A stretch of DNA of 32,000 nucleotides, taken from assembly GCF_018336915.1 (NCBI RefSeq), contig NZ_CP064923.1:270001-302000 (forward strand). Direction: 5' to 3'. This DNA is from Acaryochloris marina S15. GTDB lineage: Bacteria > Cyanobacteriota > Cyanobacteriia > Thermosynechococcales > Thermosynechococcaceae. The notes beneath the pieces are model-generated. The model was not told the origin of the DNA, searched no databases, and saw nothing but the letters and a program-made list of their open reading frames with translations. Positions within the stretch are counted from its first letter, which is position 1. The number at the start of each line of letters is the position of its first letter. A program made the position numbers and the translations under genes. Positions 17,694 through 31,916 of the stretch are shown piece after piece.

Positions 17694-17818
17694 AACAAAC
17701 TCCTTGCATGTGATTTGCATCCATCCTCACCTCTCTTTTGAATGGCAGCAATAACCTCACAGGTCATTGAATTCATGATGGGTCTTGGTTGAGAATAGAG
17801 GGCAGAGTGGAGAAATGT

Positions 17819-18643
17819 ATGACCTCTCCCAGCACGCTAAACTTTCAACATATTTGCCGCCATTGGCGTAAGTTCAGAAAGCTATCGCAACTGGATTTAG
17901 CTTTGGCGGCTAATGTGTCGCAGCGCCATGTCAGTTGGCTAGAGACTGGGCGTAGTCATCCTAGCCGAGAAATGATTGGGCGTCTCTCTGATGCCATGAA
18001 TATTCCCTTACGGGAAAGGAATATCTTGTTACAAGCTGCTGGCTATGCCGCAGACTATCGTGAAACGCAATTGGATGCGCCCATAATGGCCCCAGTGCTT
18101 GATGCGCTGAATCATATATTGCAACACCATGCCCCGTTGCCTGCCTTCATTGTGGATCGCTACTGGAATGTGAAAAAGGCCAATCAGGCAGCAGAACTAT
18201 TGCTCAATATAGGGGGAAACCCCCAAGCGCTTCAGGAAACAATGGGGACGGATGGGGGACTTAATTTAGCCTTGCTGACCGTTCATCCCGAGGGGCTCAG
18301 GCAATATATTACCAATTGGGCGCAGATCTTACCGTCTATCATCCGTCGTCTTAGGAGTGAATCTCTGGCATCGGGCAATCGAGCCATTCAGGATCAATTC
18401 GCCCAATATATCGAATTAGCTGCCCCAGAAGGTTATAGCGAGCCAGATAGTGACAGTTTGCTGCCTGTTTTGCCCTTAGAACTGAATATTAAGGGTTTAG
18501 AACTGAGTCTATTCTCAATTATTGCCACCTTTGGTACGCCCCAGGACATCACGACGGATGAACTCCGGATTGAAACCTTCTATCCCACTGACACTAAAAC
18601 CGAACAATTCTTTCGGAACTATAATTTTGAGAATTCCGTTTAA
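17819..18643 (+). CDS. XRE-family HTH transcriptional regulator with MmyB-like ligand-binding domain
   Basis: 'WRKFRKLSQLDLALAANVSQRHVSWLETGRSHPSREMIGRLSDAMNIPLRERNILLQAAGYA' matches the conserved N-terminus of MmyB-like regulators. 'PAFIVDRYWNVKKANQAA' and 'FGTPQDITTDELRIETFYPTD' match their PAS-like C-terminal domain. The gene is divergent from the small membrane protein gene. Confidence 0.8.
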   Translation: MTSPSTLNFQHICRHWRKFRKLSQLDLALAANVSQRHVSWLETGRSHPSREMIGRLSDAMNIPLRERNILLQAAGYAADYRETQLDAPIMAPVLDALNHILQHHAPLPAFIVDRYWNVKKANQAAELLLNIGGNPQALQETMGTDGGLNLALLTVHPEGLRQYITNWAQILPSIIRRLRSESLASGNRAIQDQFAQYIELAAPEGYSEPDSDSLLPVLPLELNIKGLELSLFSIIATFGTPQDITTDELRIETFYPTDTKTEQFFRNYNFENSV

Positions 18644-18792: not shown

Positions 18793-19149
18793 CTATTCCC
18801 CAACGATAGTGAGCTTTGCCCACTGTTGATGATCATTGTTTGTAAATAGCTGTAGAGCATCCCCAGCAAAATCTGGATGGGGGGTGCCCAGTTCGTAGAT
18901 GGAATTTTTGGTGGTTACATACACCCGTCCTGCTTTAGTTAGACACCCCTTAATGGGCGAAGATTTCAGCTTTTTTCCAGCAGGATACTTGGAATGGTTA
19001 AATATTTGCCCCTGAATAACCACTTGATCGCCGATGTTAACGCAAAGCCAAGATTCGATAATTGGTAAGCTGAGAGTTGCGGTATTGGATGTAGTTAAAG
19101 TGGGCTGAGAATTCTCTAAATAATAGTCTGTGATGTCATCAGCAATCAT
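18793..19149 (-). CDS. hypothetical protein
   Basis: This ORF has the same orientation as the sulfotransferase/P450/LOX genes and lies downstream of them. I prefer the internal ATG at 19149 (MIADDITDYYL...) over the track start at 19206. I recognise no motif. Confidence 0.4.
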   Translation of the reverse strand: MIADDITDYYLENSQPTLTTSNTATLSLPIIESWLCVNIGDQVVIQGQIFNHSKYPAGKKLKSSPIKGCLTKAGRVYVTTKNSIYELGTPHPDFAGDALQLFTNNDHQQWAKLTIVGE

Positions 19150-19422
19150 GATCAAGCTCGGTAGGAGTGATGCTCGGGGATGAGTGTTGTGATTAAACGA
19201 CAACACAACATTTATGGGGCTAGCTATATCTAGTCTAAGCAGAATGTCTCTCAGAAAGTACAGTAAGAATGCGGAAATCTACGCTAGCTAATATGTTTTG
19301 TTGGAGTAAACTGGCTCGTTAAATATTCGGATCTTTTGCAACAGCCTTGTGGTCAATTTTCTGCCGCTAGAGGTGTTGCTTAACTTGAGCTAGCTATGTT
19401 TGCCTGGATGAGTGCTTTGATA

Positions 19423-20316
19423 TCAATTTTTTGTATCGTACAGGGTCTTCCATTCTGGAAAGGTCATGCCCAGTAAATTGCTAAGCTCTTCAGTTTGCTT
19501 GAGTAGGATGGGCCGGAGGAATTGAGTTGCTTCCTGTAGGTCTTCGGCATCCTTATCTCGATCCACTTCTCGAATCGCTAATTTGAGTCCAGAAGAGCGA
19601 ATCTTTTTTGGGAGTAAAGAGGCTAGCTGGTTAAAAGGCCAGGTATATCTCAAGCGAAATAACGCGCTCTTTTGGTAGAACTGCTTTGGGGTTGCATGAA
19701 ATTTTTCCGTAAGATTAGCAGGGGCAAAAGATGCATCGACACCCAGCCAGTCAAACGTTTTGGTCATACACGCTTCAGCATCATTACAGAGTTGTTCAAA
19801 GGTTAAAAATAAAAATTGATCGGGCGAAAAATACTGGAAGTAATGTTTGAGCTGTTGGGGATAATTACTAACATCTTGATAAAGAGGATTTTTCTGCACT
19901 GCTGTTAGCAAACTTTGATTTTCGTTCCCTTGACGAGTCTCATGCCAATAGTGACTCACCGTGCGTTCAATGGGGTCCCTCATAATATAAATGAAACGGG
20001 CTTCAGGGTTGAACTGGGCTAGTCGTTCAGCAACATCCGTAACATGGGGGTCTTTGGCATAAAGCGTACTGGATTCACCCAAAATGGTTGCATCACCGGC
20101 ATCCTGAAAGAGGCTGAGATATTTCTCTTCATTTTCCCAAAGGCCGAGCTTTTTGATATTGGGCCAGTTCAACTGTTGGGGATGCACAAAGTAGCAAGGC
20201 TCTTTGGGCTCACACATGAAGATAGACGGGTGATTATTGAGATATTGGTGCAAGGATGAGGTGCCAGATTTCATCGCCCCAATAATAAATAGATTCGGTT
20301 TTCTTAAATTGCTCAT
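19423..20316 (-). CDS. PAPS-dependent sulfotransferase
   Basis: 'NLFIIGAMKSGTSSLHQYL' is the 5'-phosphosulfate-binding loop (PKxGTT-like). 'FIYIMRDPIERTVSHYWH' is the 3'-phosphate-binding motif (RxPxxRxxS). At 297 aa the size is typical of a soluble sulfotransferase. Confidence 0.85.
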   Translation of the reverse strand: MSNLRKPNLFIIGAMKSGTSSLHQYLNNHPSIFMCEPKEPCYFVHPQQLNWPNIKKLGLWENEEKYLSLFQDAGDATILGESSTLYAKDPHVTDVAERLAQFNPEARFIYIMRDPIERTVSHYWHETRQGNENQSLLTAVQKNPLYQDVSNYPQQLKHYFQYFSPDQFLFLTFEQLCNDAEACMTKTFDWLGVDASFAPANLTEKFHATPKQFYQKSALFRLRYTWPFNQLASLLPKKIRSSGLKLAIREVDRDKDAEDLQEATQFLRPILLKQTEELSNLLGMTFPEWKTLYDTKN

Positions 20317-20403: not shown

Positions 20404-21948
20404 TTATGCTCGCAAGACAAATCGCGCTTTTAACTGTCTGGGTACAGAGACCCCAAAGTAAAATTCTTGATCATGGGGCTGATCGCCAAATTGGATCTCT
20501 ACTTTTGCCAGCAGGATGGCTATCGTTAAGCGCATAAAGAACTTGGCAAAATCTTGACCGATGCAAGCCCGATCGCCTCGACCAAATGGAAAAAAGTAAT
20601 CGCTGCCATAGTCATTTTCTGCCAAAGTTTTTGCATCCCAGCGTTCTGGCTTAAAAGATTCTGAATCTTGCCAATGGGGAGAGAGACGCTGAAGAAACCA
20701 GTTGTTGATAAAGATTTGGGTATTGGCGGGGATGTCGTGGCCCGCAAGATGGATGGTGCGAACCGTATTGCGCGTAAAAAAGGGCACGGGGGGCCATAAC
20801 CGTAGAGACTCTCGCAATACTTGCTCCACTGGGACACAGTTTTCCAGTCGTTCCAAGGTGAGGGGTTCACGGAATAACCCTGCCAGATCTTGGTGAAGAG
20901 CAGATAAGGCTTGAGGATGCTGAAACAGCAAATGAAGCGTAGACGTAATACCACTGGGAGCCGACACCGCTCCGCCTGGGTAGACTCCAGCACAGAAGTT
21001 CCGCATTTGTTCAGGGGTAAAGGCAGACCCCCCTCGTTGCAGAACCCAGTCCAGTAGCGATCCACCGGCAGGATTAGCTTGAGTGGTTTCCATCACTTCG
21101 CCAAAGCGTTGAAACCATTGGCGACTCGCTTCTTTGTAATGTTTACCTTTGGGTTCTTCCGGAATCATCCAGCTGGCGATGGACGATCGGTTCATGCGAT
21201 CGGTCCCCGTTGCACAGAGGGTATTGAACTGTTCGAACACCTGATCGGGGAACACTTGGCCGACTGTAGCCAGGGAAAAACCATCGAAGACTAGCTTTTG
21301 AATGGCATCATAAGCCGGGAGCATGTCGGTCTCTGACTGCTGGACCAGTTCCTCCGCCCGACCTTCGATAAAGGCTTGCAAGGGCTGGACTTGAGTCTCC
21401 ATCCACTCGTGGAAGTAAGTCATATTGAAGGGATTATTTTGAACCAGGTGCTGCCATTTCGGTCCAGCATTTTTGGCAACAAAAGGATGACTCTCTGTCA
21501 GAATCGGGCGGAGGGCTTTGCGGGGGATATCTTTATAAAAATCAGCTTGGGTGGCCCGATGTCCATGGGAAGGGTGGCCGGTTTGCTGCTGGGCGGTGAG
21601 CAAGACTTGCTGGATTAAATCAGGGTCGTTGAGAACCAAGGATGGCCGAGCCAAAATCCAGAATAAGGATAAGCCACCATAGTGCTGTCCCTGTTCTCCG
21701 AGCACCTGCCAAATGGGTTTCCCTTGCTGCAGGGCCGAGATATTACCGATGGGAAAAAGCGGTTGAGGACCTGGAATTCTGCCGAACGCTTGGGTTTGTT
21801 TGCGAAAGATCAGCTGAAAAAGCATCTGAAAAAGCATCTGTGAAGAGGACTGTACTTTTGACTCCACCCACTGTCGTGGTTTGGCCTCCATCTGTTTGAG
21901 GGTATTGTGTAGTCCTGTGGTGAGTGATCCGGCTGATCGTCCTGTCAT
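20404..21948 (-). CDS. cytochrome P450 (atypical I-helix)
   Basis: It has the heme-thiolate loop 'FFPFGRGDRACIGQDF' (Cys codon at 20563-20565), ExxR in 'VLRESLRLWPP', 'FKPERW', and an N-terminal 'IPGPQPLFPIGN' proline hinge. The start is uncertain. The track uses a TTG at 21996. The first ATG is at 21948, with GAGGA about 11 nt upstream. Later ATGs at 21891 and 21837 are also possible. Confidence 0.85.
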   Translation of the reverse strand: MTGRSAGSLTTGLHNTLKQMEAKPRQWVESKVQSSSQMLFQMLFQLIFRKQTQAFGRIPGPQPLFPIGNISALQQGKPIWQVLGEQGQHYGGLSLFWILARPSLVLNDPDLIQQVLLTAQQQTGHPSHGHRATQADFYKDIPRKALRPILTESHPFVAKNAGPKWQHLVQNNPFNMTYFHEWMETQVQPLQAFIEGRAEELVQQSETDMLPAYDAIQKLVFDGFSLATVGQVFPDQVFEQFNTLCATGTDRMNRSSIASWMIPEEPKGKHYKEASRQWFQRFGEVMETTQANPAGGSLLDWVLQRGGSAFTPEQMRNFCAGVYPGGAVSAPSGITSTLHLLFQHPQALSALHQDLAGLFREPLTLERLENCVPVEQVLRESLRLWPPVPFFTRNTVRTIHLAGHDIPANTQIFINNWFLQRLSPHWQDSESFKPERWDAKTLAENDYGSDYFFPFGRGDRACIGQDFAKFFMRLTIAILLAKVEIQFGDQPHDQEFYFGVSVPRQLKARFVLRA

Positions 21949-22031: not shown

Positions 22032-24038
22032 TTAGATATTGATGCTCTGGGGAATGTTAGAGGGCTGTAGGTAGCGGTAGGGGTAGGGACGATGACGGTT
22101 TCGTTCTGCGATCGCATCTTCGATATCCAATAAGTTGGCTTGAAAACGATGCAGAGGGGCTTGCACCCGCTCATCAGAAAACCAGGATTTTTCGTACTGG
22201 CCGAGTTGTGTATGGTAAATCTGCCCCAGCAAATACGTTAACTCCATCTGATTCAAGGCTTGATGTAAGGGGGGCAGCTGGTCTAGCCGATCCTGGGAAG
22301 ATAGGGCTGTAGCAGTGGGAGCTGGCCGATAGCCTGCTAACGGCATCCCTGGGGTATAGACCATGATGTCGCCCTGGGGAAAATTCACGGCGGCATGTTG
22401 AGCACTGGCCGTAAAAATGATGAGCGTGATGGCTTGAATCAAATAGGCCTGGGTCCGCAATTGTCCCTCCTCGCCAAAGTCTGGAACTCGACCGCCATCT
22501 TCAGCCTGTAGCTCCTTTGCCCAAGCCTGGAGGGCCGCATCCTTTTGTACTGAGTCATCGGTGGGGTAGTACAAGCTCACATAATCAGTGACCCAAGTTT
22601 CGATCGCCTGCCAAATCAGTAATGCATCGTCCCGATAGGGATTAATAGGTAACGCCTCAGCATTATCCAGACCCTGTTGCTGCAATTGTTGGGGCAGCAT
22701 GGCCTGATTAAAGGAATAGCTTTGTAATCCCGTTACCGCTAAGACCCTGGCACAGTCAATGGTGGCGGCTAAGACCGTATCCACCCCGCCTTCTGGGGCC
22801 ATCAACATACTTTGAGCCCCGTTGTTGATACTTAAGGTGCCTTCAAAGTGAGGCCGCAAGAGAATACTCACGGGATGAGTCGGGAGTAGCTGGCGATGGG
22901 TGGCAATCACAAACGGGCTAATAAACAGATGGGTTCGACCCAAATGGGTTACAGCCTCGTGGTAGTTGCTATCTGCAATTTGCACGCAGGTCTTTGCCAT
23001 TTCCCAGGCATGTTGTTGTTTGGTAGCCTCACCCGTGGGTGGCGTCAGAATCGGTGTTTCAGGCCCCGGAGATTGACGGCATTGAATGGCAACGGGCTGG
23101 AGATTGCGGGAGGGCGCATCATCAGGAGGGACTGCAAACAGAGCGATGGGGGCTGAGATATATTTTTGCTGGTCTGGGTAGTTACCATTAATCGCCCCGG
23201 CCAAGATAGCGTAATCGGCGATGTATAAACGCCCTTCGGTAACGGCAGTTTGGAGGGAATCGTCCTCTCCCATCACTGCCTGATAGTGCCCATTCGTGAC
23301 GGGGAAATTAGAGCGAACAGTGTCTCTAGACAAATGGCGCACTTGTTGTAGCAAAACAGGATTAGGACCTGCTACTCGCAGATAAGCAAAGAACTCATCT
23401 TCCTGAAAGTATTGGGCACATTCCGGCAAAGGGATAGTTACAAATTGCTGATTAAAGTCTTCTATAGAGGTGGGGCGATCTTGAGCGCATTCATGGGCAA
23501 GATGTTCTTTTAAGTTCAAGTGCAGAATCCGTAATAGATCATGCTCTAAATTGGAGGCAAGGCTGTGCAGAAAGCTTTCTGAATCAGCAAAAGATAACCG
23601 TAGGCCGTTCAAAAAAGTGGTTGGCACCGTTGTCAGCAGATGCCAGATTAGACGCCACCGCACCTCTGGCCGTTGAGTCAAGATATCCACCAAGGTTTTT
23701 CGAATCAGGCGTGAAGCATGTTGCTCCGCTTCATGCTCATGGTGATGATTGTGGGCTCCCACAATTGCATTAGTAAGGATCTTGAACATGGTGCGGATCA
23801 ACTTTGACCACCAATCTCCGGATGGGAGCTCTTCTTTGGGTAAGCGATCCACCATTGCCACGGGTGCAAGGTGACTGTAGTTGTATTGATATTTTCGCCG
23901 AGCTGCTTTTAGCGCGGTAGGGATAGGCTCAGGCTGTATCGGACGAGCTAGAGCTAAACTTTGTGGATGTTCTTCTTGTTGAATTTCAACAGGTGCGAGT
24001 TGGGTAGGCAGGCCAGTGAGAGAGTACTGATGCGTCAT
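22032..24038 (-). CDS. lipoxygenase (bacterial type, no PLAT domain)
   Basis: 668 aa. 'AWEMAKTCVQIADSNYHEAVTHLGRTHLF' matches the LOX W-x2-AK...H-x4-H-x4-H iron-ligand helix. 'SAQHAAVNFPQ' supplies the H-x3-N ligands. The C-terminus '...NIPQSINI' ends in Ile, the carboxylate iron ligand. The N-terminal 'RRKYQYNYSHLAPVAMVDRLPKEE' is typical of bacterial LOX helical extensions. By hand alignment, 'SINNGAQ' against soybean 'NINALAR' puts Ala at the Coffa-Brash position, which would predict S-stereochemistry. This last point is tentative. Confidence 0.9.
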   Translation of the reverse strand: MTHQYSLTGLPTQLAPVEIQQEEHPQSLALARPIQPEPIPTALKAARRKYQYNYSHLAPVAMVDRLPKEELPSGDWWSKLIRTMFKILTNAIVGAHNHHHEHEAEQHASRLIRKTLVDILTQRPEVRWRLIWHLLTTVPTTFLNGLRLSFADSESFLHSLASNLEHDLLRILHLNLKEHLAHECAQDRPTSIEDFNQQFVTIPLPECAQYFQEDEFFAYLRVAGPNPVLLQQVRHLSRDTVRSNFPVTNGHYQAVMGEDDSLQTAVTEGRLYIADYAILAGAINGNYPDQQKYISAPIALFAVPPDDAPSRNLQPVAIQCRQSPGPETPILTPPTGEATKQQHAWEMAKTCVQIADSNYHEAVTHLGRTHLFISPFVIATHRQLLPTHPVSILLRPHFEGTLSINNGAQSMLMAPEGGVDTVLAATIDCARVLAVTGLQSYSFNQAMLPQQLQQQGLDNAEALPINPYRDDALLIWQAIETWVTDYVSLYYPTDDSVQKDAALQAWAKELQAEDGGRVPDFGEEGQLRTQAYLIQAITLIIFTASAQHAAVNFPQGDIMVYTPGMPLAGYRPAPTATALSSQDRLDQLPPLHQALNQMELTYLLGQIYHTQLGQYEKSWFSDERVQAPLHRFQANLLDIEDAIAERNRHRPYPYRYLQPSNIPQSINI

Positions 24039-24720
24039 TGTTGATCCGGTTTATGGGTGTTCTGACGTAAATGGCAACTGCCTGTGATCAAGGGTGTAGA
24101 GAGAGTTCGTAGCAGCTACCGATTCAGTCCTAGTGTTCCCAAGACGGATTTGGACTTTACTTTTTAAATAGCCTTGAGTTTGGGTAAGCTGGTACTATCT
24201 GGATTGAAAACTATTGAGTATGTAAATGAAAGATTCTGTAGTTAAAACTAGCGTTGATTTAAGTACGGTAAATCGAGGTAGATAATCATTAAGACTGATT
24301 AGCTGAAGGTGAGGCTAATCAGAGCTTCTGACATGTTGTTAACCTTGGTGTTAGGACGTTTTTATTGTTTAATGCTGATATTGATTCGTCAACCTAGAGG
24401 GATGCAAATGAGTAAGCAATAAAAAGCAAAATATCTAGTTTATGGGTATTTATAAGGTTTTTCAGGGTTATGTCGAATCTATTTAAAATAATTCTTGGGC
24501 AGGCTCATACGAATATTGCAGTCACAATTATGCCCAATTGATTTGGAATAAATTAGGAGTAATCCTTGTTTGAGTAATAGTCTTGAGACCATAACAAATA
24601 AATTACTTAGATCTTGCAAGTTTTATGTAAGTTTGGGGAACATCTAGATTGAGGTAATTGCTAGTATTTTTCTTTTTGGAAAAGTTAGTGCTCCTGTTTT
24701 CTGGCTTGGAGAAATAATTG
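24039..24720. promoter_or_regulatory. long AT-rich divergent intergenic region (promoters for the LOX operon and the HstK-type operon)
   Basis: About 680 bp without an ORF of 60 aa or more, and visibly AT-rich. It lies between the minus-strand LOX start (24038) and the plus-strand kinase start (24721; GGAGA about 9 nt upstream). I could not assign -10/-35 elements confidently. Confidence 0.35.
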
Positions 24721-27700
24721 ATGTTGGGGACAATCGCGGACTGTCGTCTGGTTGAGCATCTATATGAGAGTGAGAATTCCATTGTTTATCGGGGTCAACG
24801 ACAGGCTGAGCCGCATCAGGTCATTCTGAAAGTTCTGAAAGAGGATTACCCAACTGCCTCGGAACTGACTCGGTATCGCCAAGAATATGAGATTACCCGC
24901 AGCCTAGAACTTGAAGGGGTGATCAAAGTGCTGGGGTTAGAACCCTATCAACGAACCCTAGCCATTATTTTGGAAGATGTGGAAGGGGTGTCCCTCAAGA
25001 CTTATTACCAGGGAAAGGCCGTTCCGCTGGTTGAGTTTTTACCCCTAGCCATTAGTATTACCGAGGTATTAGGCCGGATCCACAGCCAAAATGTCATCCA
25101 TAAGGATCTGAATCCTAGCAACATCATTTTTAATCCAGATACCCATCAATTACGGATCATCGATTTTGGCATTTCTACTCAGCTGAGCCGAGAAACAACG
25201 ATTCTCAAAAACCCTCGCATCCTCGAAGGAACGCTGCCCTATATCGCTCCTGAACAAACGGGGCGCATGAATCGTTCCTTGGATTATCGGACAGACTTCT
25301 ATGCCTTGGGGGTGATGTTTTATGAGCTGCTAACGGGACAGTTACCCTTTACCGCCAAGGATCCGCTGAAATTAGTCCATTGCCACCTCGCCCAACAGCC
25401 CATCCCTCCCAGTCAAGTCAATTTCGATATTCCTGGGGTGATGTCTGACTTGGTGATGATCTTAATGGCGAAAACCGCCGAGGAACGGTATCAGAGTGCC
25501 TTTGGGATTCAAGCTGATTTGACTGCCTGTTGGCAACAACTCAAGCAAACTGGGGAAATTCGCGCCTTTCCGCTCCGTACCCAGGATCATTCAGATAAGT
25601 TTCATATTCCCCAAAAGCTCTATGGGCGGTCCCAAGAAATTGCAGCCTTATTAACAGCATTTGAGCGGGTCAATCACCCTCAAGATCCGACCAAGAGTAG
25701 TGAAATGATGCTGGTGGCGGGTTACTCCGGAATTGGTAAATCGGCTTTAGTTGCAGAAGTCCATAAGCCGATTACCGAAAAGCAAGGGTACTTTATCTCT
25801 GGGAAGTATGACCAATTTCAGCGAGATGTGCCCTACTCGGCTGTCATCAGTGCGTTTCAAGATTTAGTCAAGCAACTTTTGACTGAAAGTGAAACCCAGC
25901 TAGACCAATGGCGACAAAGATTACTGGCGGCCTTGGGACCTAATGGTCAGGTTATCATTGACGTCATCCCTGAAATTGAGCTGATTACGGGGCCTCAGCC
26001 TCCGGTGCCTGAACTAGGGCCTGCAGAAGCCTTGAATCGGTTCAATCTGGCATTTCAAAATTTTATTCGGGTGTTTTGCACCCCAGCTCACCCCTTGGTG
26101 GTGTTTTTAGATGATTTGCAATGGGCGGATTCCGCCAGCTTGAAGTTGATCAAGCTGATGATGATGGATCGGCAAATGCGATCGCTGCTGTTAATCGGCG
26201 CTTACCGTGACAACGAAGTCGATGCCACCCATCCGTTGATGACCTTGGTGAAGCAGCTTTGGCAAGAAAAAGTCAACATCCATACGATTACTCTCCAGCC
26301 CCTCTCTCAACTGCATCTGTGTCAGCTGATTGCGGATACGGTTCACCATAATTTAGAGACTACCCTGTCCTTGGCAGAGCTGGTCCTGAATAAAACCGAA
26401 GGGAATCCTTTTTTTGTCAATGAATTTCTGAAAAATCTTTATACGGAAGCGCTGTTGCAGTTTAATTCTCGTGCTCAACAGTGGGAATGGGATATCGCCC
26501 AAATTCAGTCTCAAGATCTCACGGATAACGTGATCGAACTACTGATTAGTAAGCTGAAAAAATTACCCTCTGCTACCCAAGATGCCCTGCGGCTGGCTGC
26601 TTGTGTGGGAGCTGAATTTGATCTGCATACCCTCAGCTTGATTCGTCAGCAATCCCACACGGAGGTGTTTGCAGATTTGAAAGTCGCGATTCAGCTCGGG
26701 TTGATCTTTCCCCAGTCTGAGCTGAATGATGCATTAGTGATTACAGATTTTCGCTTTGGTCATGACCGGATTCAACAAGCCGCTTATGCCCTAATCGATC
26801 CTGACAGGCGCTCTACGGTGCACTTGAGCATTGGCCGGTTGCTGTGGCATAACGTGGAACCGGATCAACTGGCAGAGCGTATTTTTGAGGTGGTGGATCA
26901 TCTCAATCAGGCGCTCCCCCTGATTACGGATCTAGAAGAACAAGATCAGGTCGCCCAACTTAACCTCAAAGCCGGCCAGAAAGCGAAATCAGCTACGGCT
27001 TATAGTGCTGCTGTGCGGTATCTACAAACAGGATTGAGTTTGGTGGGGGAGACGGGATGGCAAAAAGCCTATCCCCTAACTCTTTGGCTTCACCAAGAAG
27101 CAGTTGAAGCTGCTTATCTCCACCAAGATTATCCCCAGCAAGAACAGCTGACAACCGTGGTGCAGCAGCAGGCCAGAACCGTGTTGGATATGGTGAAAGT
27201 CTACCGGGTCAAAATTTTGGCTCGCTCTGCTCAGAATCGTCATCTAGAAGCAACGGATATTGGCTTTGAGATTTTGGAGCGCCTGGGAATCACGTTTGTA
27301 GACCCCACCCTCGAGAATTTACAGCAGGAATTGGATCAAACCAAGCAGCTCTGTGCGGATCGCTCGATTCAAGATTTGATCCGGTTGTCTCCTATGGCGG
27401 CTGAGGATAAACTCGCCGCGATGCAGATCCTCTCGGATATTTTGTCCTCTGGGTATCAAGCTTCTTTTGAACGCTTTATTCTCAGTAATCTGAAGCAAAT
27501 TCACTTATCCCTTACCTATGGCAATACGGCTCCCTCCGCGTTTGCTTACGATTGTTATGGCATTACCCTCTGTGGGGTGGTGGGAGATATTGAAGCAGGC
27601 TACCAGTTTGGACGGTTAGCCCTAGCGGTGGTCGATCAGTTTCAGGCGAAAAAGACCAAGAGTCGGGTGGTCTTTGTGTTCAATGCGTTTGTGCGCCACT

Positions 27701-30234
27701 GGACTGACCCCCTGAATTTGACGATTCCTGATTTGCATGAAGGGTATCAGATTGGGTTAGAAACCGGGGATTTAGAATATGCCAGCTATTCCCTTTGTTG
27801 GGAGGCGATGCATTCTTTGCTGACGGGGGAGAAACTGCCAGATTTAGCATTGCGCATGCTGGAGTTTCAGCAAGCCATTGCTGGGTTTCAACAGGCGGCT
27901 TGCCTGCTCTATTTGCAAATTTTTCAACAGGTGACGTCCCACTTAACGGAGCCCAACTTGGATCCGACCTGCTTATCCGGGACTTACCTGCAAGAACGAC
28001 AGGTCATTGTGGACAGTGCGGATAATAAGTTAGCTCTGGCTTTCTTTTATACCCTCAAAGCTCAGGTGGCTTACCTGTTGGGACAGCCGGCGACGGCCTT
28101 AGAGAGTACCCAAAAAGCGGTTGATTATGTGGATGGCATGACGGCTGCGGCGACGGTGGCGAGCCTCAATTTTTACGATTCTCTTGCTCGCCTGGCCCTT
28201 TACGAGGCTCTGCCTCCTGTTGAGCAAGAGCAGATGCTAGCAAGGGTGGCGACCAATCAAGACCAGCTGCAGAAATGGGCTGTCCATGCCCCGGCCAACC
28301 ACCAGCATAAATATTGTCTGGTAGAAGCGGAGCGTTTTCGGGTATTGAGACAACTTCAACAGGCGGGGGAGGCCTATGATCGGGCGATTGCCCTGGCCCA
28401 GTCTCATCATTATCCGAATGAAGCAGCCTTAGCTAATGAGCTGGCGGCGAAGTGTTTTCTGCAGCAAGAACGGGATAATTTTGCCCGGGTGTATCTGAAT
28501 GAAGCCTATTACGGGTACTACTGTTGGGGGGCAACGGCTAAATTACGACAACTGGAAGCGTCCTATCCTTATCTGCTGGCCCAGCAAGTGATCCATTCCC
28601 AACAGGGCACCATCCCGACTACCCCCTTGGTGGCAGCAGCAGCGACGAGTACTATTCGCACTGGTCAAGCGCTGGATCTCTCCACGGTCTTGCAGGCATC
28701 ACAAGCGATTGCGGGGGAAATTGTCCTCGATAAGCTGTTGATGACCCTGATCAAAATTCTGGTCCGCAATGCGGGTGCCCAAGTGGGTCATTTAATCCTG
28801 AATGTGGAAGGTCGGCTAGTGATTGAGGCATCTTTTAACTCCCAGTCTGGCCAGAGCCAGGTGTTGCAGTCTCAATCGTTTGCTGGACAGCTTCCCGACA
28901 GTATCGTCAACTACGTGCTCCGTACTCAGGAGAGTGTTGTTCTTCAGCAGGCTACCCAAGACAGTAACTTTGGTCTGGACGCTTATATCACGACCCATCA
29001 GCCGAAATCGATTCTCTGTGCTCCGCTGATGAATCAAGGACAATTGAGCGGGATTCTCTATTTAGAAAACAACCTGACGACGGGGGCCTTTACGGCAGAC
29101 CGTTTAGAGATTTTGCAGCTGCTGTCGGGACAGGCTGCGATCGCAATCGACAATGCGCGCCTTTATACCAACCTGGAAGAGAAAGTCGATGAACGGACCC
29201 AGGAACTCTCCCAAGCTCTAGAAGACCTGCAGTTGGCCCAAGACGGCCTGATTCAGTCAGAAAAAATGGCGGCCTTGGGCCAACTGATTGCTGGGGTCGC
29301 CCATGAAATTAATACTCCCTTGGGTGCGATTCGATCTTCGATTGAATATATTGCCAATTTCCTCGATCAGCATCTGACGACCCTGCCACAATTTTTTCGG
29401 GAGTTAACCCCCCAGCAGGCAGAGCAGTTTAAATCGTTACTCCTGCGTGCCTTAACCCCTTCACCGACCTTGTCAGGTCGCGAACGACGCCATACCCGCA
29501 AGGCTTTGGCCAAGCAACTATCTGAACAAGGGATTGCCTCGGCAGAGTCCCTGGCCAGTTTATTGCTGGATCTAGGGATTTGTGATGGCATCCATGACCT
29601 CCTTCCCCTTCTATCTGAACCCGAGAGCGAACCCTTATTAAAGATGGTGCGCCAGTTTACGCGGGTGCGAGAAAGTACGCGGGATATTTCTACCGCGAGC
29701 GATCGTTCTGCCAAAATTGTGTTTGCCCTGAAAACCTATGCTCGCTACGACCATAGCGGTGAAAAGATTGAAGCCAATATCACGGACGGCATCGAGGCCG
29801 TATTAACCCTGTATCACAACCAAATCAAACATGGGGTGACGGTTCATCGCTCCTTCGCCGAACTCCCCCCTATCGCCTGCTATTTTGATGAACTTAATCA
29901 GGTGTGGACCAACCTGCTACACAATGCTCTGCAGGCCATGGACCATCAAGGCACCCTTGACATTGATGTCAGCCAACAGGCGGATCAAGTCTGCGTCAAG
30001 ATTACCGACAACGGTCCTGGCGTTCCCCCTGAGCTGCAAGGCAAAATTTTTGAGCCCTTTTTCACCACCAAACCCCCCGGTGAAGGCAGTGGTTTAGGTC
30101 TTGACATTGTCCACAAAATAATTGACAAGCATCAGGGTACCCTAAGCTTGGACTCCGTTCCTGGCCGTACAACCTTTAGTGTGACCTTGCCCATATCTGT
30201 CATTCCAACCCCTCAACCGACTCCTGCCCTATGA
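24721..30234 (+). CDS. multidomain sensor: Ser/Thr-kinase-like domain, AAA_16/STAND ATPase, helical-repeat region, GAF, histidine kinase (HstK-type)
   Basis: Kinase-like domain: 'VILKVLK', 'HKDLNPSNIIF', 'IIDFGIS', 'LPYIAPEQ'. P-loop ATPase: Walker A 'GYSGIGKSAL' (about 25720-25746), Walker B 'VVFLDDLQWAD'. Next comes a helical region of about 650 aa. The GAF domain ends 'AAIAIDNARLY'. A coiled coil precedes the H-box 'AALGQLIAGVAHEINTPLGAI' (His codon 29302-29304). The N-box is 'NLLHNALQA', G1 is 'ITDNGPGVP' and G2 is 'GEGSGLGLDIV'. No TM segments were seen. Confidence 0.9.
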   Translation: MLGTIADCRLVEHLYESENSIVYRGQRQAEPHQVILKVLKEDYPTASELTRYRQEYEITRSLELEGVIKVLGLEPYQRTLAIILEDVEGVSLKTYYQGKAVPLVEFLPLAISITEVLGRIHSQNVIHKDLNPSNIIFNPDTHQLRIIDFGISTQLSRETTILKNPRILEGTLPYIAPEQTGRMNRSLDYRTDFYALGVMFYELLTGQLPFTAKDPLKLVHCHLAQQPIPPSQVNFDIPGVMSDLVMILMAKTAEERYQSAFGIQADLTACWQQLKQTGEIRAFPLRTQDHSDKFHIPQKLYGRSQEIAALLTAFERVNHPQDPTKSSEMMLVAGYSGIGKSALVAEVHKPITEKQGYFISGKYDQFQRDVPYSAVISAFQDLVKQLLTESETQLDQWRQRLLAALGPNGQVIIDVIPEIELITGPQPPVPELGPAEALNRFNLAFQNFIRVFCTPAHPLVVFLDDLQWADSASLKLIKLMMMDRQMRSLLLIGAYRDNEVDATHPLMTLVKQLWQEKVNIHTITLQPLSQLHLCQLIADTVHHNLETTLSLAELVLNKTEGNPFFVNEFLKNLYTEALLQFNSRAQQWEWDIAQIQSQDLTDNVIELLISKLKKLPSATQDALRLAACVGAEFDLHTLSLIRQQSHTEVFADLKVAIQLGLIFPQSELNDALVITDFRFGHDRIQQAAYALIDPDRRSTVHLSIGRLLWHNVEPDQLAERIFEVVDHLNQALPLITDLEEQDQVAQLNLKAGQKAKSATAYSAAVRYLQTGLSLVGETGWQKAYPLTLWLHQEAVEAAYLHQDYPQQEQLTTVVQQQARTVLDMVKVYRVKILARSAQNRHLEATDIGFEILERLGITFVDPTLENLQQELDQTKQLCADRSIQDLIRLSPMAAEDKLAAMQILSDILSSGYQASFERFILSNLKQIHLSLTYGNTAPSAFAYDCYGITLCGVVGDIEAGYQFGRLALAVVDQFQAKKTKSRVVFVFNAFVRHWTDPLNLTIPDLHEGYQIGLETGDLEYASYSLCWEAMHSLLTGEKLPDLALRMLEFQQAIAGFQQAACLLYLQIFQQVTSHLTEPNLDPTCLSGTYLQERQVIVDSADNKLALAFFYTLKAQVAYLLGQPATALESTQKAVDYVDGMTAAATVASLNFYDSLARLALYEALPPVEQEQMLARVATNQDQLQKWAVHAPANHQHKYCLVEAERFRVLRQLQQAGEAYDRAIALAQSHHYPNEAALANELAAKCFLQQERDNFARVYLNEAYYGYYCWGATAKLRQLEASYPYLLAQQVIHSQQGTIPTTPLVAAAATSTIRTGQALDLSTVLQASQAIAGEIVLDKLLMTLIKILVRNAGAQVGHLILNVEGRLVIEASFNSQSGQSQVLQSQSFAGQLPDSIVNYVLRTQESVVLQQATQDSNFGLDAYITTHQPKSILCAPLMNQGQLSGILYLENNLTTGAFTADRLEILQLLSGQAAIAIDNARLYTNLEEKVDERTQELSQALEDLQLAQDGLIQSEKMAALGQLIAGVAHEINTPLGAIRSSIEYIANFLDQHLTTLPQFFRELTPQQAEQFKSLLLRALTPSPTLSGRERRHTRKALAKQLSEQGIASAESLASLLLDLGICDGIHDLLPLLSEPESEPLLKMVRQFTRVRESTRDISTASDRSAKIVFALKTYARYDHSGEKIEANITDGIEAVLTLYHNQIKHGVTVHRSFAELPPIACYFDELNQVWTNLLHNALQAMDHQGTLDIDVSQQADQVCVKITDNGPGVPPELQGKIFEPFFTTKPPGEGSGLGLDIVHKIIDKHQGTLSLDSVPGRTTFSVTLPISVIPTPQPTPAL

Positions 30235-30626
30235 CAAAACTGGCCATTCTTTGTGTTGATGACGAAGTCATTATTCTCAATAGCCTCCTGCGACAGCTGC
30301 AAACTGCGTTTGACGATAACTACATCTATGAAACTGCCGAAAATGCTAGCGAAGCCTTGGAGCTGATTGAAGAACTGCAGGAAGAAAATACAGATCTGTT
30401 AGTGATCGTGTCTGATTGGTTAATGCCTGGAGCTAAAGGAGATGAATTTCTGATTCAAGTCCATCAGAAGTTCCCCGGGGTGGTCAAGATTTTGCTGACC
30501 GGTCAAGCCGATGAAGCGGCGGTAGAAAGAGCACAATCCCAGGCCAATCTGTTTAACTGTTTACGTAAACCTTGGAGTGAGAGTGATCTCATTCAATGTA
30601 TTCAATCAGCCTTAGGGACGGTGTAA
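30231..30626 (+). CDS. single-domain response regulator (CheY-like receiver)
   Basis: Its ATG overlaps the upstream stop (ATGA at 30231-30234). All receiver signature residues are present: 'CVDDE', 'VIVSDWLMPGAKG' (phospho-acceptor Asp), 'ILLTGQAD' and 'LRKPW'. Confidence 0.9.
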   Translation: MTKLAILCVDDEVIILNSLLRQLQTAFDDNYIYETAENASEALELIEELQEENTDLLVIVSDWLMPGAKGDEFLIQVHQKFPGVVKILLTGQADEAAVERAQSQANLFNCLRKPWSESDLIQCIQSALGTV

Positions 30627-30641
30627 AGACTAATCAGGACG

Positions 30642-31916
30642 ATGCCTAAACCCGTAATTGTTTGTGTAGATGATGAAGTCGCAGTATTAGATAGCCTCCG
30701 GCGTGAGCTATCTGAAGTCTTTGAAGATAGCTGCGAAATAGAAACCGCTATGGGGGGCAAGGATGCCATTGCCCTGGTGCATGACCTGATCGAGGATGAA
30801 TGCGATTTATCGGTGATCATTGCCGATTATCTGATGCCGGATATCAAAGGGGATGAGGTTTTACAACAAGTCCATCAGCTCTCCCCCCAAACCTTAAAAA
30901 TCATGTTGACGGGGCAGGCTAATGTGGATGGCATTTCTAATGCGATTAATACCGCCCAGCTATATCACTATATTGCCAAGCCCTGGCAACCCGAAAATTT
31001 ACAGTTAACGGTGCGAGAAGCCCTCAATAGCTACCAGCTCGCTAAAAAAATTAAAGACTATCAGCAAACTCTAGAACGCAAAGTTGAAGAGCGCACTCAG
31101 GAATTATCCGCAATTCTGCATACCCTCCAAACCACCCAAGCCGAACTGATTCAGGCGGAAAAAATGGCTGCCCTAGGCCAGTTAGTGGCTGGTGTGGCCC
31201 ATGAAATTAACACGCCAGTGGGAAATGCCCTATTAGCTGCCTCTGTTCTGAACAACGAGACCGGTTCCTTAACACAAGCCTTCGACCAGGGGGGGCTAAA
31301 ACGGTCTGCTTTGGTCAGCTATTTACAGACAGCCCAAGAGAGTAGTGGTCTGATCTTGCAAAATCTCCATGGGGCGGCGGCCCTCATTCAAAACTTCAAG
31401 CAAGTTGCAGTCGATCAAACCAGTCATGAACAACGAGAGTTTCAGATCATCCCGTATATTGAGAGTGTATTGACTAATTTGGAGCCGAAATTAAAACAGA
31501 CTCGCCATAGGGTGACGGTCTCAGGGGATGCTGCTCTAAAAACTACTAGTTATCCAGGAGCACTGTCGCAAGTGGCGACCAATTTTGTCATGAATTCCCT
31601 TTTGCATGCCTACCAACCTGGAGAGGCAGGGCAATTAAAATTTAATGTGACTCAACAACAGAATCAGATCATTCTGGAATATACCGATGATGGTTGCGGC
31701 ATTCCTGCAGAAGATCAGCCTAAGATTTTTGAGCCATTCTTTACAACGGGACGAGATCGCGGGGGAAGTGGCTTAGGTTTACATATTGTTCATAATCTAG
31801 TCACCCAAACCCTAGGAGGAACCGTATCTTGTCAGAGTGAGGTTGCCGTGGGAACCCAGTTTAAGCTGCAGTTACCCTTGACCTTAGCAAAAGGGGGGTC
31901 TCATGCCCGAGGATAA
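30642..31916 (+). CDS. hybrid protein: N-terminal receiver plus histidine kinase
   Basis: Receiver: 'CVDDE', 'VIIADYLMPDIKG', 'IMLTGQAN', 'IAKPW'. Then a coiled coil, 'LERKVEERTQELSAILHTLQTTQAELIQAEKMAALGQLVAGVAHEINTPVGNA' (H-box His codon 31200-31202), and an HATPase_c domain ('MNSLLHAYQ', 'YTDDGCGIP', 'GGSGLGLHIVHNLV'). Confidence 0.9.
   Translation: MPKPVIVCVDDEVAVLDSLRRELSEVFEDSCEIETAMGGKDAIALVHDLIEDECDLSVIIADYLMPDIKGDEVLQQVHQLSPQTLKIMLTGQANVDGISNAINTAQLYHYIAKPWQPENLQLTVREALNSYQLAKKIKDYQQTLERKVEERTQELSAILHTLQTTQAELIQAEKMAALGQLVAGVAHEINTPVGNALLAASVLNNETGSLTQAFDQGGLKRSALVSYLQTAQESSGLILQNLHGAAALIQNFKQVAVDQTSHEQREFQIIPYIESVLTNLEPKLKQTRHRVTVSGDAALKTTSYPGALSQVATNFVMNSLLHAYQPGEAGQLKFNVTQQQNQIILEYTDDGCGIPAEDQPKIFEPFFTTGRDRGGSGLGLHIVHNLVTQTLGGTVSCQSEVAVGTQFKLQLPLTLAKGGSHARG

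What the first reader, a model, noticed from the sequence alone, without database searches (positions are those of the whole stretch)
20917..21006. The P450 I-helix lacks the conserved acid-alcohol pair, as expected for a peroxide-utilising P450
A gap-free hand alignment was possible because both sequences have 31 residues between the 'E(I/M)R' motif and 'QHP'. It places 'MRNFCAGVYPGGAVSAPSGITSTLHLLFQHP' against the usual '...FLLAGHETT...QHP'. The (A/G)Gx(D/E)T(T/S) oxygen-activation motif becomes G-G-A-V-S-A, so Val replaces the acid and Ser replaces Thr. P450s that rearrange peroxides rather than activate O2 (CYP74, CYP5A, CYP8A) characteristically lose this pair. This protein, however, keeps a normal uninterrupted Cys loop (FGRGDRACIG), ExxR and PERW, which CYP74 enzymes do not. 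That would make it a different lineage converging on hydroperoxide chemistry. No ferredoxin or reductase partner gene is visible in the window.
Basis: inference. Interest (0 to 1): 0.65.

Follow-up and report, generated by a model that had tools for sequence, protein, structure and literature searches.

The report
Lipoxygenase-partnered P450 lacking its catalytic acid
This Acaryochloris gene encodes a cytochrome P450 from an uncharacterised bacterial family that has lost the acid residue needed to activate oxygen and almost always sits beside, or is fused to, a lipoxygenase, so it most likely converts the lipoxygenase's fatty-acid hydroperoxide directly into another oxylipin.

Summary
Window 20917-21006 (- strand) encodes residues 331-360 of a P450 (CDS 20404-21948). 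Profile alignments to CYP3A4, CYP24A1 and CYP97A3 put G341-G342-A343-V344-S345 opposite A-G-x-E-T. Val therefore replaces the acid and Ser replaces Thr.

This defines a family. All 53 family members have hydrophobic+Ser there, and all 66 nearest outgroup P450s have E/D-T. Of 90 representatives in a 1.84-billion-protein library, 89 are non-canonical.

The Cys loop, ExxR and PERW are canonical. The closest folds are CYP3A, CYP97 and CYP102, not CYP74.

The peroxide reading gains independent support:
- The gene lies 83 nt downstream of a lipoxygenase, with no terminator-like site between.
- A lipoxygenase is adjacent in 27 of 41 species loci across five phyla, with variable gene order.
- A natural P450-PLAT-lipoxygenase fusion exists.
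- No ferredoxin is seen near any member.

I conclude this is a non-CYP74 P450 lineage that probably transforms lipoxygenase-derived hydroperoxides without a redox partner. The product and the O2/NAD(P)H independence are untested.

Caveats: Ser345 is invariant, some monooxygenases lack the acid, and 14 loci lack a lipoxygenase.

A second conserved neighbour is a giant Ser/Thr-kinase/AAA_16 signalling protein. I found no published characterisation.

The parts
20404..21948 (-). Cytochrome P450 CDS (514 aa from ATG 21948; the mechanical ORF runs to TTG 21996)
   Evidence: Pfam PF00067, 1.9e-43. The ATG is preceded by AGAGGA, and the N-terminus matches homologues P0001-P0004. AF2 pLDDT is 89.1 with a P450 fold.
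20917..21006 (-).
   Evidence: Translation. The AF2 model has a helix over residues 328-359.
20959..20976 (-). G341-G342-A343-V344-S345-A346, the site of the usual (A/G)-G-x-(D/E)-T-(T/S) motif. V344 is at the acid position and S345 at the Thr position.
   Evidence: Alignments to CYP97A3, CYP3A4/5/7 and CYP24A1. G341, G342 and S345 are invariant in 36 sequences. 53/53 family members versus 0/66 outgroup P450s have hydrophobic+Ser here.
20800..20811 (-). ExxR motif (E396-S-L-R399) of the K-helix
   Evidence: E396 and R399 are invariant in A1.
20638..20649 (-). PERW motif (residues 450-453)
   Evidence: P450, R452 and W453 are invariant.
20557..20592 (-). Canonical, uninterrupted Cys-ligand loop FPFGRGDRACIG (haem-ligand Cys478 at 20563-20565)
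   Evidence: There is no 9-residue CYP74-type insertion.
22032..24038 (-). Lipoxygenase (668 aa) immediately upstream on the same strand, the presumed source of the P450's substrate
   Evidence: Pfam PF00305, 4.4e-67. It gives E-values of 1e-112 to 1e-117 against bacterial 15-lipoxygenase structures, including 4g32. The iron-ligand motifs HEAVTH and HAAVN and the C-terminal Ile are present. The gap to the P450 ATG is 83 nt with no terminator-like site between.
19423..20316 (-). Sulfotransferase (297 aa) 87 nt downstream of the P450 on the same strand; a possible tailoring enzyme
   Evidence: Pfam PF13469 1.4e-22 and PF00685 5e-15. It is conserved only in the A. marina MBIC11017 locus L010.
24718..30234 (+). 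Giant signalling protein (Ser/Thr kinase - AAA_16 - GAF - HisKA - HATPase, 1838 aa), divergent from the LOX-P450 operon
   Evidence: Pfam. Orthologues or Pkinase-AAA_16 analogues lie next to the P450 in 19/41 species loci, including loci with no LOX.
30231..31916 (+). Response regulator (30231-30626) and hybrid response-regulator/histidine kinase (30642-31916) following the kinase
   Evidence: Pfam. The same set occurs in L004, L010, L011, L014 and L017.

Best explanation
The gene encodes a soluble haem-thiolate P450 of a distinct bacterial family related to the CYP3/CYP4/CYP97/CYP102 group. It most likely works as the second enzyme of a two-step oxylipin pathway.

Proposed mechanism:
1. The upstream lipoxygenase converts a polyunsaturated fatty acid (probably C18:2 or C18:3 in Acaryochloris) to a hydroperoxide.
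2. The hydroperoxide binds directly to the ferric haem of the P450 and serves as both substrate and oxidant.
3. The O-O bond is cleaved and the fragments rearrange within the pocket. No O2, NAD(P)H or ferredoxin is needed.
4. The product is an epoxy alcohol, diol, allene oxide, hemiacetal/aldehyde or divinyl ether.

Because no O2 has to be protonated, the I-helix acid is dispensable and has been replaced by a hydrophobic residue (V344). The invariant Ser345, at the axial position over the iron, probably positions or polarises the peroxide.

Shown here: the sequence features, their family-wide conservation, the fold, and the genetic coupling to lipoxygenase. Inferred: the substrate, the independence from a redox partner, and the product. 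A hydroxylated product (epoxy alcohol or diol) is weakly favoured in this organism, because a sulfotransferase follows in the same operon.
For: 1. The I-helix register is fixed by four independent alignments.
2. Acid-to-hydrophobic replacement is seen in 53/53 family members and 0/66 nearest outgroup P450s. 89/90 representative domains scoring at least 195 bits are non-canonical, against 16/101 below that score.
3. Operon layout is LOX, 83 nt, P450, 87 nt, sulfotransferase, with no terminator-like site between LOX and P450.
4. A LOX is adjacent in 27/41 species-level loci across five phyla. The order is LOX-P450, P450-LOX or divergent, and most stop-to-stop ORF gaps are under 100 nt or overlapping. 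One Leptospirales locus has a tandem P450-LOX-P450-LOX.
5. Fusions: P0178 is P450(FFGGALS)-PLAT-LOX in one 1200-aa ORF, and P0219 is P450 plus a LOX-like C-terminus.
6. No ferredoxin-like ORF lies within 10 kb of the P450 in any of 50 loci or in the window, and no reductase was found in the window.
7. Precedent from established knowledge: every characterised haemoprotein fused or clustered with a fatty-acid dioxygenase converts that enzyme's peroxide. Examples are the coral and A. marina catalase-type AOS-LOX, the fungal DOX-CYP fusions and the Nostoc 10S-DOX with its catalase-type lyase (PMC13049297, PMC10813956).
Against: - No biochemical data exist for any member that I could find.
- Ser345 is an invariant, conservative replacement of the proton-relay Thr. 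From my own knowledge, Thr-to-Ser P450cam remains coupled, and genuine monooxygenases such as CYP51 (His) and CYP7A1 (Asn) also lack the acid. The I-helix alone therefore does not exclude O2 activation.
- The closest solved structures are fatty-acid, sterol and carotenoid hydroxylases.
- 14 of 41 loci have no LOX within 10 kb. These are the 'Synechococcus' MAGs, the Schlesneria clade, Zavarzinella and others. Three of them are too short or cut at a contig end to be informative.
- Bacterial P450s commonly use unlinked ferredoxins.
- The ferredoxin test in the related loci was only a Cys-motif scan.
- I could not inspect the AF2 coordinates to measure which side chains face the haem.
Confidence: 0.7

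Rival explanations
1. It is a conventional O2- and NAD(P)H-dependent monooxygenase (hydroxylase or epoxygenase). It acts on the fatty acid or on the reduced LOX product, using an unlinked cyanobacterial ferredoxin/FNR. Ser345 and ordered water would supply the proton relay in place of the acid.
For: Ser at the Thr position is invariant. The nearest structures are fatty-acid, sterol and carotenoid hydroxylases (BM3, CYP4B1, CYP46A1, CYP97). The Cys loop, ExxR and PERW are fully canonical. From my own knowledge, some true monooxygenases lack the acid (CYP51, CYP7A1). LOX-less members exist.
Against: The acid position is hydrophobic in every member, never D, E, H, N or Q in the main clade. No redox partner is adjacent in about 40 species. 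A direct fusion to LOX makes most sense for channelling an unstable hydroperoxide. Sister sub-variants carry His-Pro or Arg-Asn at these positions, which also do not fit O2 activation.
Confidence: 0.15
2. It is a peroxygenase. It uses the LOX-made hydroperoxide (or H2O2) only as an oxygen donor to oxidise a second molecule, for example by epoxidising another fatty acid, rather than isomerising the hydroperoxide itself.
For: The genetic coupling to LOX and the loss of the acid fit this reading equally well. Related sub-variants with a basic residue followed by Pro or Asn at the acid/alcohol positions recall, from my own knowledge, the Arg-Pro of CYP152 peroxygenases.
Against: The window protein has no Arg-Pro. 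All characterised dioxygenase-linked haemoproteins act intramolecularly on the hydroperoxide (PMC13049297). No candidate second-substrate pathway is conserved in the loci.
Confidence: 0.08
3. It is mainly a regulatory or sensory haemoprotein tied to the neighbouring Ser/Thr-kinase/AAA_16 signalling protein, and its LOX adjacency is secondary.
For: Pkinase-AAA_16 proteins are adjacent in 19/41 loci. In three cyanobacterial lineages, Schlesneria and Zavarzinella they are present without a LOX.
Against: The catalytic P450 motifs are all strictly conserved. LOX adjacency is more frequent than kinase adjacency (27 versus 19 of 41), and fusions are to LOX. P0190 is instead fused to cNMP-binding domains. 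Myxococcota loci and most Leptospiraceae loci have LOX but no kinase.
Confidence: 0.05

Closest known systems
CYP74 clan (plant, algal, metazoan and Methylobacterium allene oxide synthase, hydroperoxide lyase, divinyl ether synthase and epoxyalcohol synthase)
   Same: Both are P450s placed directly downstream of a lipoxygenase. In both, the I-helix O2-activation motif is replaced, and no redox partner is needed (shown for CYP74, predicted here) (PMC10813956).
   Different: CYP74 has a 9-residue insertion in the haem-binding loop and an I-helix Asn (FN321TwGG in Arabidopsis AOS). This protein has a canonical FPFGRGDRACIG loop and PERW, has Ser345 at the axial site, and groups by sequence and fold with CYP3A, CYP97 and CYP102.
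Thromboxane synthase CYP5A1 and prostacyclin synthase CYP8A1
   Same: These are self-sufficient P450s with normal Cys loops that isomerise a dioxygenase-made peroxide. TXS belongs to the CYP3 clan, which is the closest structural neighbourhood of this protein.
   Different: TXS keeps the acid and loses the Thr (AGYE-I345), and PGIS has an axial Asn287. Here the acid is lost and a Ser is kept. Their substrate is the PGH2 endoperoxide from a haem cyclooxygenase, not a LOX hydroperoxide.
Fungal dioxygenase-P450 fusion enzymes (linoleate diol synthases, 8R/8S/9R/9S-AOS, epoxy alcohol synthases)
   Same: A fatty-acid dioxygenase is physically coupled to a self-sufficient P450 that converts its hydroperoxide. 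Some of them (8R/9R-AOS) keep a hydroxyl residue (Thr) at the axial position, as this family keeps Ser (PMC13049297).
   Different: The partner there is a haem (COX-like) dioxygenase and the two are always fused. Here the partner is a non-haem iron LOX, usually encoded as a separate adjacent gene and rarely fused (P0178).
Catalase-related AOS/HPL-lipoxygenase fusions (Plexaura and other corals; Acaryochloris marina plasmid-type fusion)
   Same: The logic is the same, and for P0178 so is the domain order: haemoprotein, PLAT, then LOX. The genus Acaryochloris already has a characterised haemoprotein-LOX pair.
   Different: The haemoprotein there is a Tyr-ligated mini-catalase, not a Cys-ligated P450.
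CYP152 peroxygenases (P450 BS-beta, OleT)
   Same: These are bacterial P450s that use a peroxide instead of O2/NAD(P)H and lack the acid-alcohol pair (my own knowledge).
   Different: CYP152 has Arg-Pro at these positions and uses H2O2 on free fatty acids. The window protein has Val-Ser and is LOX-linked. Only some sister sub-variants (for example AG-T-R-N-V and AG-A-H-P-V) are reminiscent of CYP152.

Membership tests
Cytochrome P450 superfamily (PF00067) | Profile match above the curated threshold, and a P450 fold | tested here: met
   Pfam score 149.4 bits against a 22.8-bit cut-off. AF2 pLDDT 89.1; Foldseek TM up to 0.83 to CYP97, CYP3A4 and BM3.
Cytochrome P450 superfamily (PF00067) | Cys-ligand loop FxxGxRxCxG, ExxR, PERF/W | tested here: met
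   FPFGRGDRACIG, ESLR and PERW are present at verified coordinates and invariant across the family.
Canonical O2-activating P450 monooxygenases | I-helix (A/G)-G-x-(D/E)-T acid-alcohol pair | tested here: not met
   The motif is G-G-A-V-S. The acid position is hydrophobic in 53/53 family members, against E/D in 66/66 outgroup P450s.
Canonical O2-activating P450 monooxygenases | Dependence on a ferredoxin/reductase or CPR partner | tested here: inconclusive
   None is encoded in the window or near 50 related loci by motif scan. Unlinked partners cannot be excluded.
CYP74 clan | Nine-residue insertion in the haem-binding loop (PMC10813956) | tested here: not met
   The FPFGRGDRACIG loop is uninterrupted.
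CYP74 clan | I-helix 'hydroperoxide-binding' groove with a catalytic Asn (N321 in Arabidopsis AOS) | tested here: not met
   There is no Asn in residues 339-348, and the axial residue is Ser345. Only the Anabaena 4-3 and Cyanothece BG0011 members have S-A-N-F-S.
CYP74 clan | Closest sequence and structure similarity to CYP74 members | tested here: not met
   The top 60 PDB sequence hits and top 50 fold hits are CYP3A, 97, 102, 24, 46, 4, 17 and 1, with no CYP74 among them. No explicit phylogeny with CYP74 sequences was built.
Self-sufficient peroxide-converting P450s (functional class: CYP74, CYP5A1, CYP8A1, fungal DOX-CYP partners) | Genetic or physical coupling to a fatty-acid dioxygenase | tested here: met
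   The window shows an operon layout. A LOX is adjacent in 27/41 species loci. P450-PLAT-LOX and P450-LOX fusions exist.
Self-sufficient peroxide-converting P450s (functional class: CYP74, CYP5A1, CYP8A1, fungal DOX-CYP partners) | Turnover of hydroperoxide or endoperoxide without O2, NAD(P)H or a redox partner | not testable with these tools
   This needs enzyme assays.
CYP152 peroxygenases | Arg-Pro at the acid/alcohol positions, binding the substrate carboxylate | tested here: not met
   The window protein has Val-Ser there.

The most novel reading that the evidence does not exclude
LOX, this P450 and the adjacent STAND-like Ser/Thr kinase (Pkinase-AAA_16, with GAF and histidine-kinase modules in cyanobacteria) form a widespread bacterial oxylipin signalling module. 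The P450 would make a specific oxylipin from a membrane-derived hydroperoxide, and the kinase would sense or control that molecule. This would be a prokaryotic counterpart of jasmonate or eicosanoid signalling. In some planctomycetes a RoxA-like dihaem dioxygenase would replace or supplement the LOX.
Probability: 0.25. Interest if true: 0.85.

Novelty: new variant of a known kind. Interest (0 to 1): 0.68.

Why it matters
Enzymes that process fatty-acid hydroperoxides define which oxylipin signals or volatiles an organism makes. The known ones are the CYP74 clan, two animal P450s, the fungal DOX-CYP fusions and the catalase-type enzymes. Bacterial lipoxygenases are being characterised and exploited, but their physiological role and downstream enzymes are largely unknown.

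This finding identifies a coherent, uncharacterised P450 family: about 90 clusters at 50% identity, spread over five phyla. It is the commonest genomic partner of these lipoxygenases and carries a family-specific rewiring of the oxygen-activation site.

If the prediction holds, three things follow:
- It would be another, separately evolved P450 solution to hydroperoxide chemistry.
- It would give bacterial LOX pathways a defined second step, including in Myxococcaceae, where related LOXs have been studied in M. xanthus without this P450.
- It would provide cofactor-free biocatalysts for oxylipin synthesis.

The recurrent link to large Ser/Thr-kinase signalling proteins makes the question of bacterial oxylipin signalling directly testable.

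Tried and rejected
- **CYP74 membership.** Rejected. There is no loop insertion and no I-helix Asn, and the nearest neighbours are different families.
- **One-residue alternative register.** The CYP46A1 pairwise alignment gives it, but it needs a gap and disagrees with three profile alignments and with the pattern of invariant residues. It also lacks an acid.
- **Redox partners.** Pfam scans of all window ORFs of at least 120 aa, plus Cys-motif scans of the window and of 50 loci, found only spurious out-of-frame ORFs.
- **Curated families.** NCBIfam has no model for the P450 (best score 80 bits against a 525-bit cut-off), the LOX or the sulfotransferase. PADLOC gives nothing for P450, LOX or sulfotransferase, and only generic kinase-domain hits for the kinase.
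- **Long 'fusion' hits in the representative search.** Most proteins of about 1000 aa are tandem canonical P450 gene models with E/D-T motifs and are not family members. Only P0178 and P0219 are P450-LOX fusions.
- **Literature.** Nine full-text searches covered Acaryochloris+LOX+P450, bacterial LOX operons, MXAN neighbours, P450-LOX fusions and bacterial AOS/HPL/EAS. None found a paper on this family. The library is incomplete, so this is not proof. The A. marina LOX paper PMC2787963 was not held.
- **Membrane anchor.** The N-terminus has no TM-like segment (maximum 19-residue Kyte-Doolittle value 0.59).
Full report
**What is at the coordinates.**
- Window 20917-21006 on the minus strand encodes MRNFCAGVYPGGAVSAPSGITSTLHLLFQH. 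These are residues 331-360 of an ORF running from 21996 (TTG) to 20404.
- Pfam identifies the ORF as a cytochrome P450 (PF00067, E = 1.9e-43, residues 75-513).
- Close homologues start at the Met that is residue 17 of the ORF. That ATG (21948) is preceded by AGAGGA, so the CDS is most likely 20404-21948, or 514 aa.
- I keep ORF numbering below.
- The window comes from an Acaryochloris strain. The orthologous locus on the A. marina MBIC11017 chromosome is 88% identical at the protein level (L010).

**Checking the alignment.**
- HMMER aligns the segment without gaps to CYP97A3, placing G-G-A-V-S-A opposite A-G-H-E-T-S.
- A profile built from 36 family members aligns G341-G342-A343-V344-S345 to A-G-Y-E-T of CYP3A4, CYP3A5 and CYP3A7, and to A-A-V-E-T of CYP24A1.
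- One pairwise alignment, to CYP46A1, is shifted by one residue and needs a compensating gap. It would put Ala at the acid position, so neither register has an acid.
- The three positions that never vary in the family are G341, G342 and S345.
- An AlphaFold2 model from the family alignment has mean pLDDT 89.1. It shows a single I-helix over residues 328-359 with block pLDDT of 92-98.
- The Cys loop FPFGRGDRACIG, ESLR and PERW are all present and uninterrupted.

**Is it more than chance?**
- I aligned all 120 database hits to the family HMM.
- The 53 family members covering the site have V-S (24), I-S (17), F-S (10), M-S (1) or Y-S (1) at the acid/alcohol positions. The 66 next-best P450s have E-T (64) or D-T (2).
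- I then searched 1.84 billion representative proteins with the profile. Of 90 domains scoring at least 195 bits, 89 are non-canonical. Of these, 67 are hydrophobic-Ser and 13 carry His, Arg, Lys, Asn or Gly followed by Pro or Asn, for example AGAHPV and AGTRNV.
- Below 195 bits, 85 of 101 domains are canonical.
- The substitution is therefore a defining character of a discrete family, not an accident of one sequence.
- In the cyanobacterial clade the motif reads Y-P-G-G-A-(V/I)-S-x-P-S, with two prolines flanking it.

**Relationship to known P450s.**
- The best sequence matches among solved structures are CYP97A3, CYP46A1, CYP3A4/5/7, CYP24A1, CYP4B1 and CYP102.
- The best fold matches are CYP3A4, CYP97C1/A3 and BM3, with TM-scores up to 0.83.
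- No CYP74 or CYP8A entry appears among the top 60 sequence or top 50 fold matches.
- CYP74 enzymes have a nine-residue insertion in the haem-binding loop and a catalytic Asn in the I-helix (PMC10813956; PMC13049297). Neither feature is present here.
- The protein is therefore not a CYP74-clan member.
- No curated NCBIfam model covers it.
- It has no hydrophobic N-terminal anchor.

**Genomic context in the window.**
- Directly upstream on the same strand lies a 668-aa lipoxygenase at 22032-24038 (PF00305, 4.4e-67).
- It matches bacterial 15-lipoxygenase structures such as 4g32 at E-values of 1e-112 to 1e-117. It retains the iron-ligand motifs and the C-terminal Ile.
- The gap to the P450 ATG is 83 nt, with no terminator-like site in between. 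The only promoter-like site on this strand lies upstream of the LOX.
- A sulfotransferase follows 87 nt downstream of the P450, at 19423-20316.
- Divergently transcribed are an 1838-aa Ser/Thr-kinase/AAA_16/GAF/HisKA/HATPase protein, a response regulator and a hybrid response-regulator kinase.
- No ferredoxin, flavodoxin or reductase is encoded anywhere in the 32 kb.

**Context in relatives.**
- I fetched 41 species-level loci from GTDB genomes and nine loci from metagenomes and other genome assemblies. I searched them with a LOX HMM.
- A LOX gene lies within 10 kb in 27 of the 41 species loci, nearly always as the immediate neighbour.
- LOX-linked carriers are:
  - Acaryochloris, Acaryochloridaceae, Anabaena sp. 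4-3 and Cyanothece sp. BG0011;
  - Leptospiraceae;
  - Gemmataceae, Gemmatales and Ca. Kuenenia;
  - Corallococcus, Myxococcus, Citreicoccus and Cystobacter;
  - Qipengyuania.
- Gene order is not fixed. It is LOX then P450 in 22 cases, P450 then LOX in 9, and divergent in 2. This argues for selection on adjacency rather than inherited synteny.
- One Leptospirales locus has P450-LOX-P450-LOX in tandem.
- The Myxococcaceae loci carry two LOX genes plus the P450. This resembles the MXAN_1744/1745 LOX pair characterised in M. xanthus, where no P450 partner was examined (PMC5760719).
- A motif scan found no credible ferredoxin near the P450 in any locus.

**Fusion proteins.**
- Most long hits in the representative search are tandem canonical P450 gene models and are irrelevant.
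- P0178 (1200 aa, from a metagenome contig) is a single ORF. It contains a family-type P450 (FFGGALS motif, residues 61-470), a PLAT domain (524-627) and a complete lipoxygenase (755-1183, ending in Ile).
- This is the domain order of the coral catalase-type AOS-LOX fusion, with a P450 in place of the mini-catalase.
- P0219 (935 aa) joins a family-type P450 to a divergent LOX-like C-terminus.
- Such fusions are strong evidence that the two activities act consecutively on one substrate.

**Interpretation.**
- Every characterised haemoprotein that is fused or clustered with a fatty-acid dioxygenase converts that enzyme's peroxide product without external electrons. Examples are the coral and A. 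marina catalase-type AOS, the fungal DOX-CYP fusions and the Nostoc 10S-DOX with its catalase-type lyase (PMC13049297 and PMC10813956).
- This precedent, together with the family-wide loss of the proton-relay acid, points to one explanation. The P450 binds the LOX-made hydroperoxide at the ferric haem, cleaves the O-O bond and rearranges the product.
- The product cannot be predicted from sequence.
- The invariant Ser345 would sit at the axial position. That position holds Asn in plant AOS and PGIS, Ile in thromboxane synthase and Thr in fungal 8R/9R-AOS.
- A sulfotransferase in the Acaryochloris operon hints at a hydroxylated product. It is present only in the window and in MBIC11017, so this is weak.
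- I put the probability of the core claim, reductant-independent conversion of LOX hydroperoxides, at about 0.7.

**Caveats and rivals.**
- Ser is a conservative substitute for Thr, and some true monooxygenases lack the acid (my own knowledge: CYP51, CYP7A1).
- The nearest structural relatives are hydroxylases.
- Fourteen of 41 loci lack a LOX, although three of these are too short or are cut at a contig end.
- A conventional monooxygenase using an unlinked ferredoxin therefore remains possible (about 0.15).
- A peroxygenase that uses the hydroperoxide as oxidant for a second substrate (about 0.08) and a mainly regulatory role (about 0.05) are less likely.
TXS keeps the Glu, and 8R/9R-AOS keep a Thr.

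**A second conserved partner.**
- Pkinase-AAA_16 proteins are adjacent in 19 of the 41 loci.
- In three cyanobacterial lineages the P450 directly follows the giant kinase and no LOX is present.
- In Schlesneria and Zavarzinella the neighbours are Pkinase-AAA_16(-TPR) proteins. In Zavarzinella there is also a RoxA-like dihaem cytochrome c.
- In locus L023 the genes for LOX, P450, Pkinase-AAA_16 and the RoxA-like protein lie in a row on one strand.
- This suggests, but does not show, a link between the oxylipin made here and a signalling system.

**Novelty.**
- Nine full-text literature searches found no description of this family, of LOX-adjacent bacterial P450s or of P450-LOX fusions.
- Recent reviews of bacterial LOX, of the epoxyalcohol-synthase/CYP74 branch and of octadecanoids do not mention it.
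- The library is incomplete, so prior work cannot be excluded.
- I rate the finding as a new variant of a known kind: a LOX-coupled, probably self-sufficient P450 from a lineage other than CYP74. Interest is about 0.68.

Noticed in passing
window 24718-31916 (+); L001, L002, L004, L006, L010-L015, L017, L021: A giant Ser/Thr-kinase/AAA_16/GAF/HisKA/HATPase protein (1838 aa) with a response regulator and a hybrid RR-histidine kinase is a conserved neighbour of the P450 in cyanobacteria. It is present even in lineages where the LOX is absent. L004 also has an RR-GGDEF.
   Followed up: partly
L003 9382-11052 (-); L020 1665-3257 (-); L023 15481-17085 (+): A RoxA-like dihaem cytochrome c, related to rubber oxygenase 4b2n, lies next to the P450 in Zavarzinella, where no LOX is present. 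In L023 the genes for LOX, P450, Pkinase-AAA_16 and the RoxA-like protein lie in a row on one strand. It may be an alternative or additional dioxygenase.
   Followed up: partly
P0178 (1200 aa, JGI metagenome contig 3880 bp); P0219 (935 aa): These are natural single-ORF fusions of a family-type P450 with PLAT+lipoxygenase (P0178) or with a divergent LOX-like domain (P0219). P0178 also has an N-terminal hydrophobic helix. The source organisms are unknown.
   Followed up: partly
P0164, P0165, P0167, P0171, P0179, P0184, P0185, P0203, P0206, P0209, P0224, P0232, P0246: A sister sub-group of the family carries His-Pro, Arg-Asn, Lys-Asn, Asn-Pro or Gly-Pro at the acid/alcohol positions (for example AGAHPV and AGTRNV). 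This recalls the Arg-Pro of CYP152 peroxygenases or the axial Asn of AOS and PGIS. Their genomic contexts were not examined.
   Followed up: no
L018 9974-11377 (Anabaena sp. 4-3); L041 9986-11434 (Cyanothece sp. BG0011): These two LOX-linked cyanobacterial members have S-A-N-F-S instead of G-G-x-hydrophobic-S, so they lack the invariant Gly-Gly and gain an Asn. L041 has two LOX genes downstream.
   Followed up: no
L021 4642-16581: A Leptospirales MAG has a Pkinase-AAA_16 protein followed by a tandem duplication, P450-LOX-P450-LOX.
   Followed up: no
L038-L040, L042, L043 (Corallococcus, Myxococcaceae, Myxococcus): These myxobacterial loci carry two LOX genes (divergent) plus the P450. The arrangement resembles the characterised M. 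xanthus MXAN_1744/1745 LOX pair (PMC5760719), for which no P450 partner was studied. I did not confirm the P450 in M. xanthus DK1622 itself.
   Followed up: partly
window 19423-20316 (-): A sulfotransferase (PF13469/PF00685) is the third gene of the apparent LOX-P450 operon. It is present only here and in A. marina MBIC11017 (L010), which suggests a lineage-specific sulfated oxylipin.
   Followed up: partly
window 17789-18643 (+), 14771-15769 (+), 15748-16815 (-), 6311-6832 (-): An MmyB-like HTH regulator with a ligand-binding domain, two SDR/epimerase-type reductases and an SRPBCC (polyketide cyclase/lipid-transport) protein lie nearby. Any link to the oxylipin genes is unknown.
   Followed up: no
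window 18793-19206 (-); 20526-21065 (-): A 137-aa ORF downstream of the sulfotransferase has no Pfam or NCBIfam match. The 179-aa ORF at 20526-21065 lies inside the P450 gene in another frame and is almost certainly spurious.
   Followed up: no
P0190 (1239 aa): A family-related P450 domain with a non-canonical I-helix (FTRGVLQTAT) is fused to two cyclic-nucleotide-binding domains.
   Followed up: no
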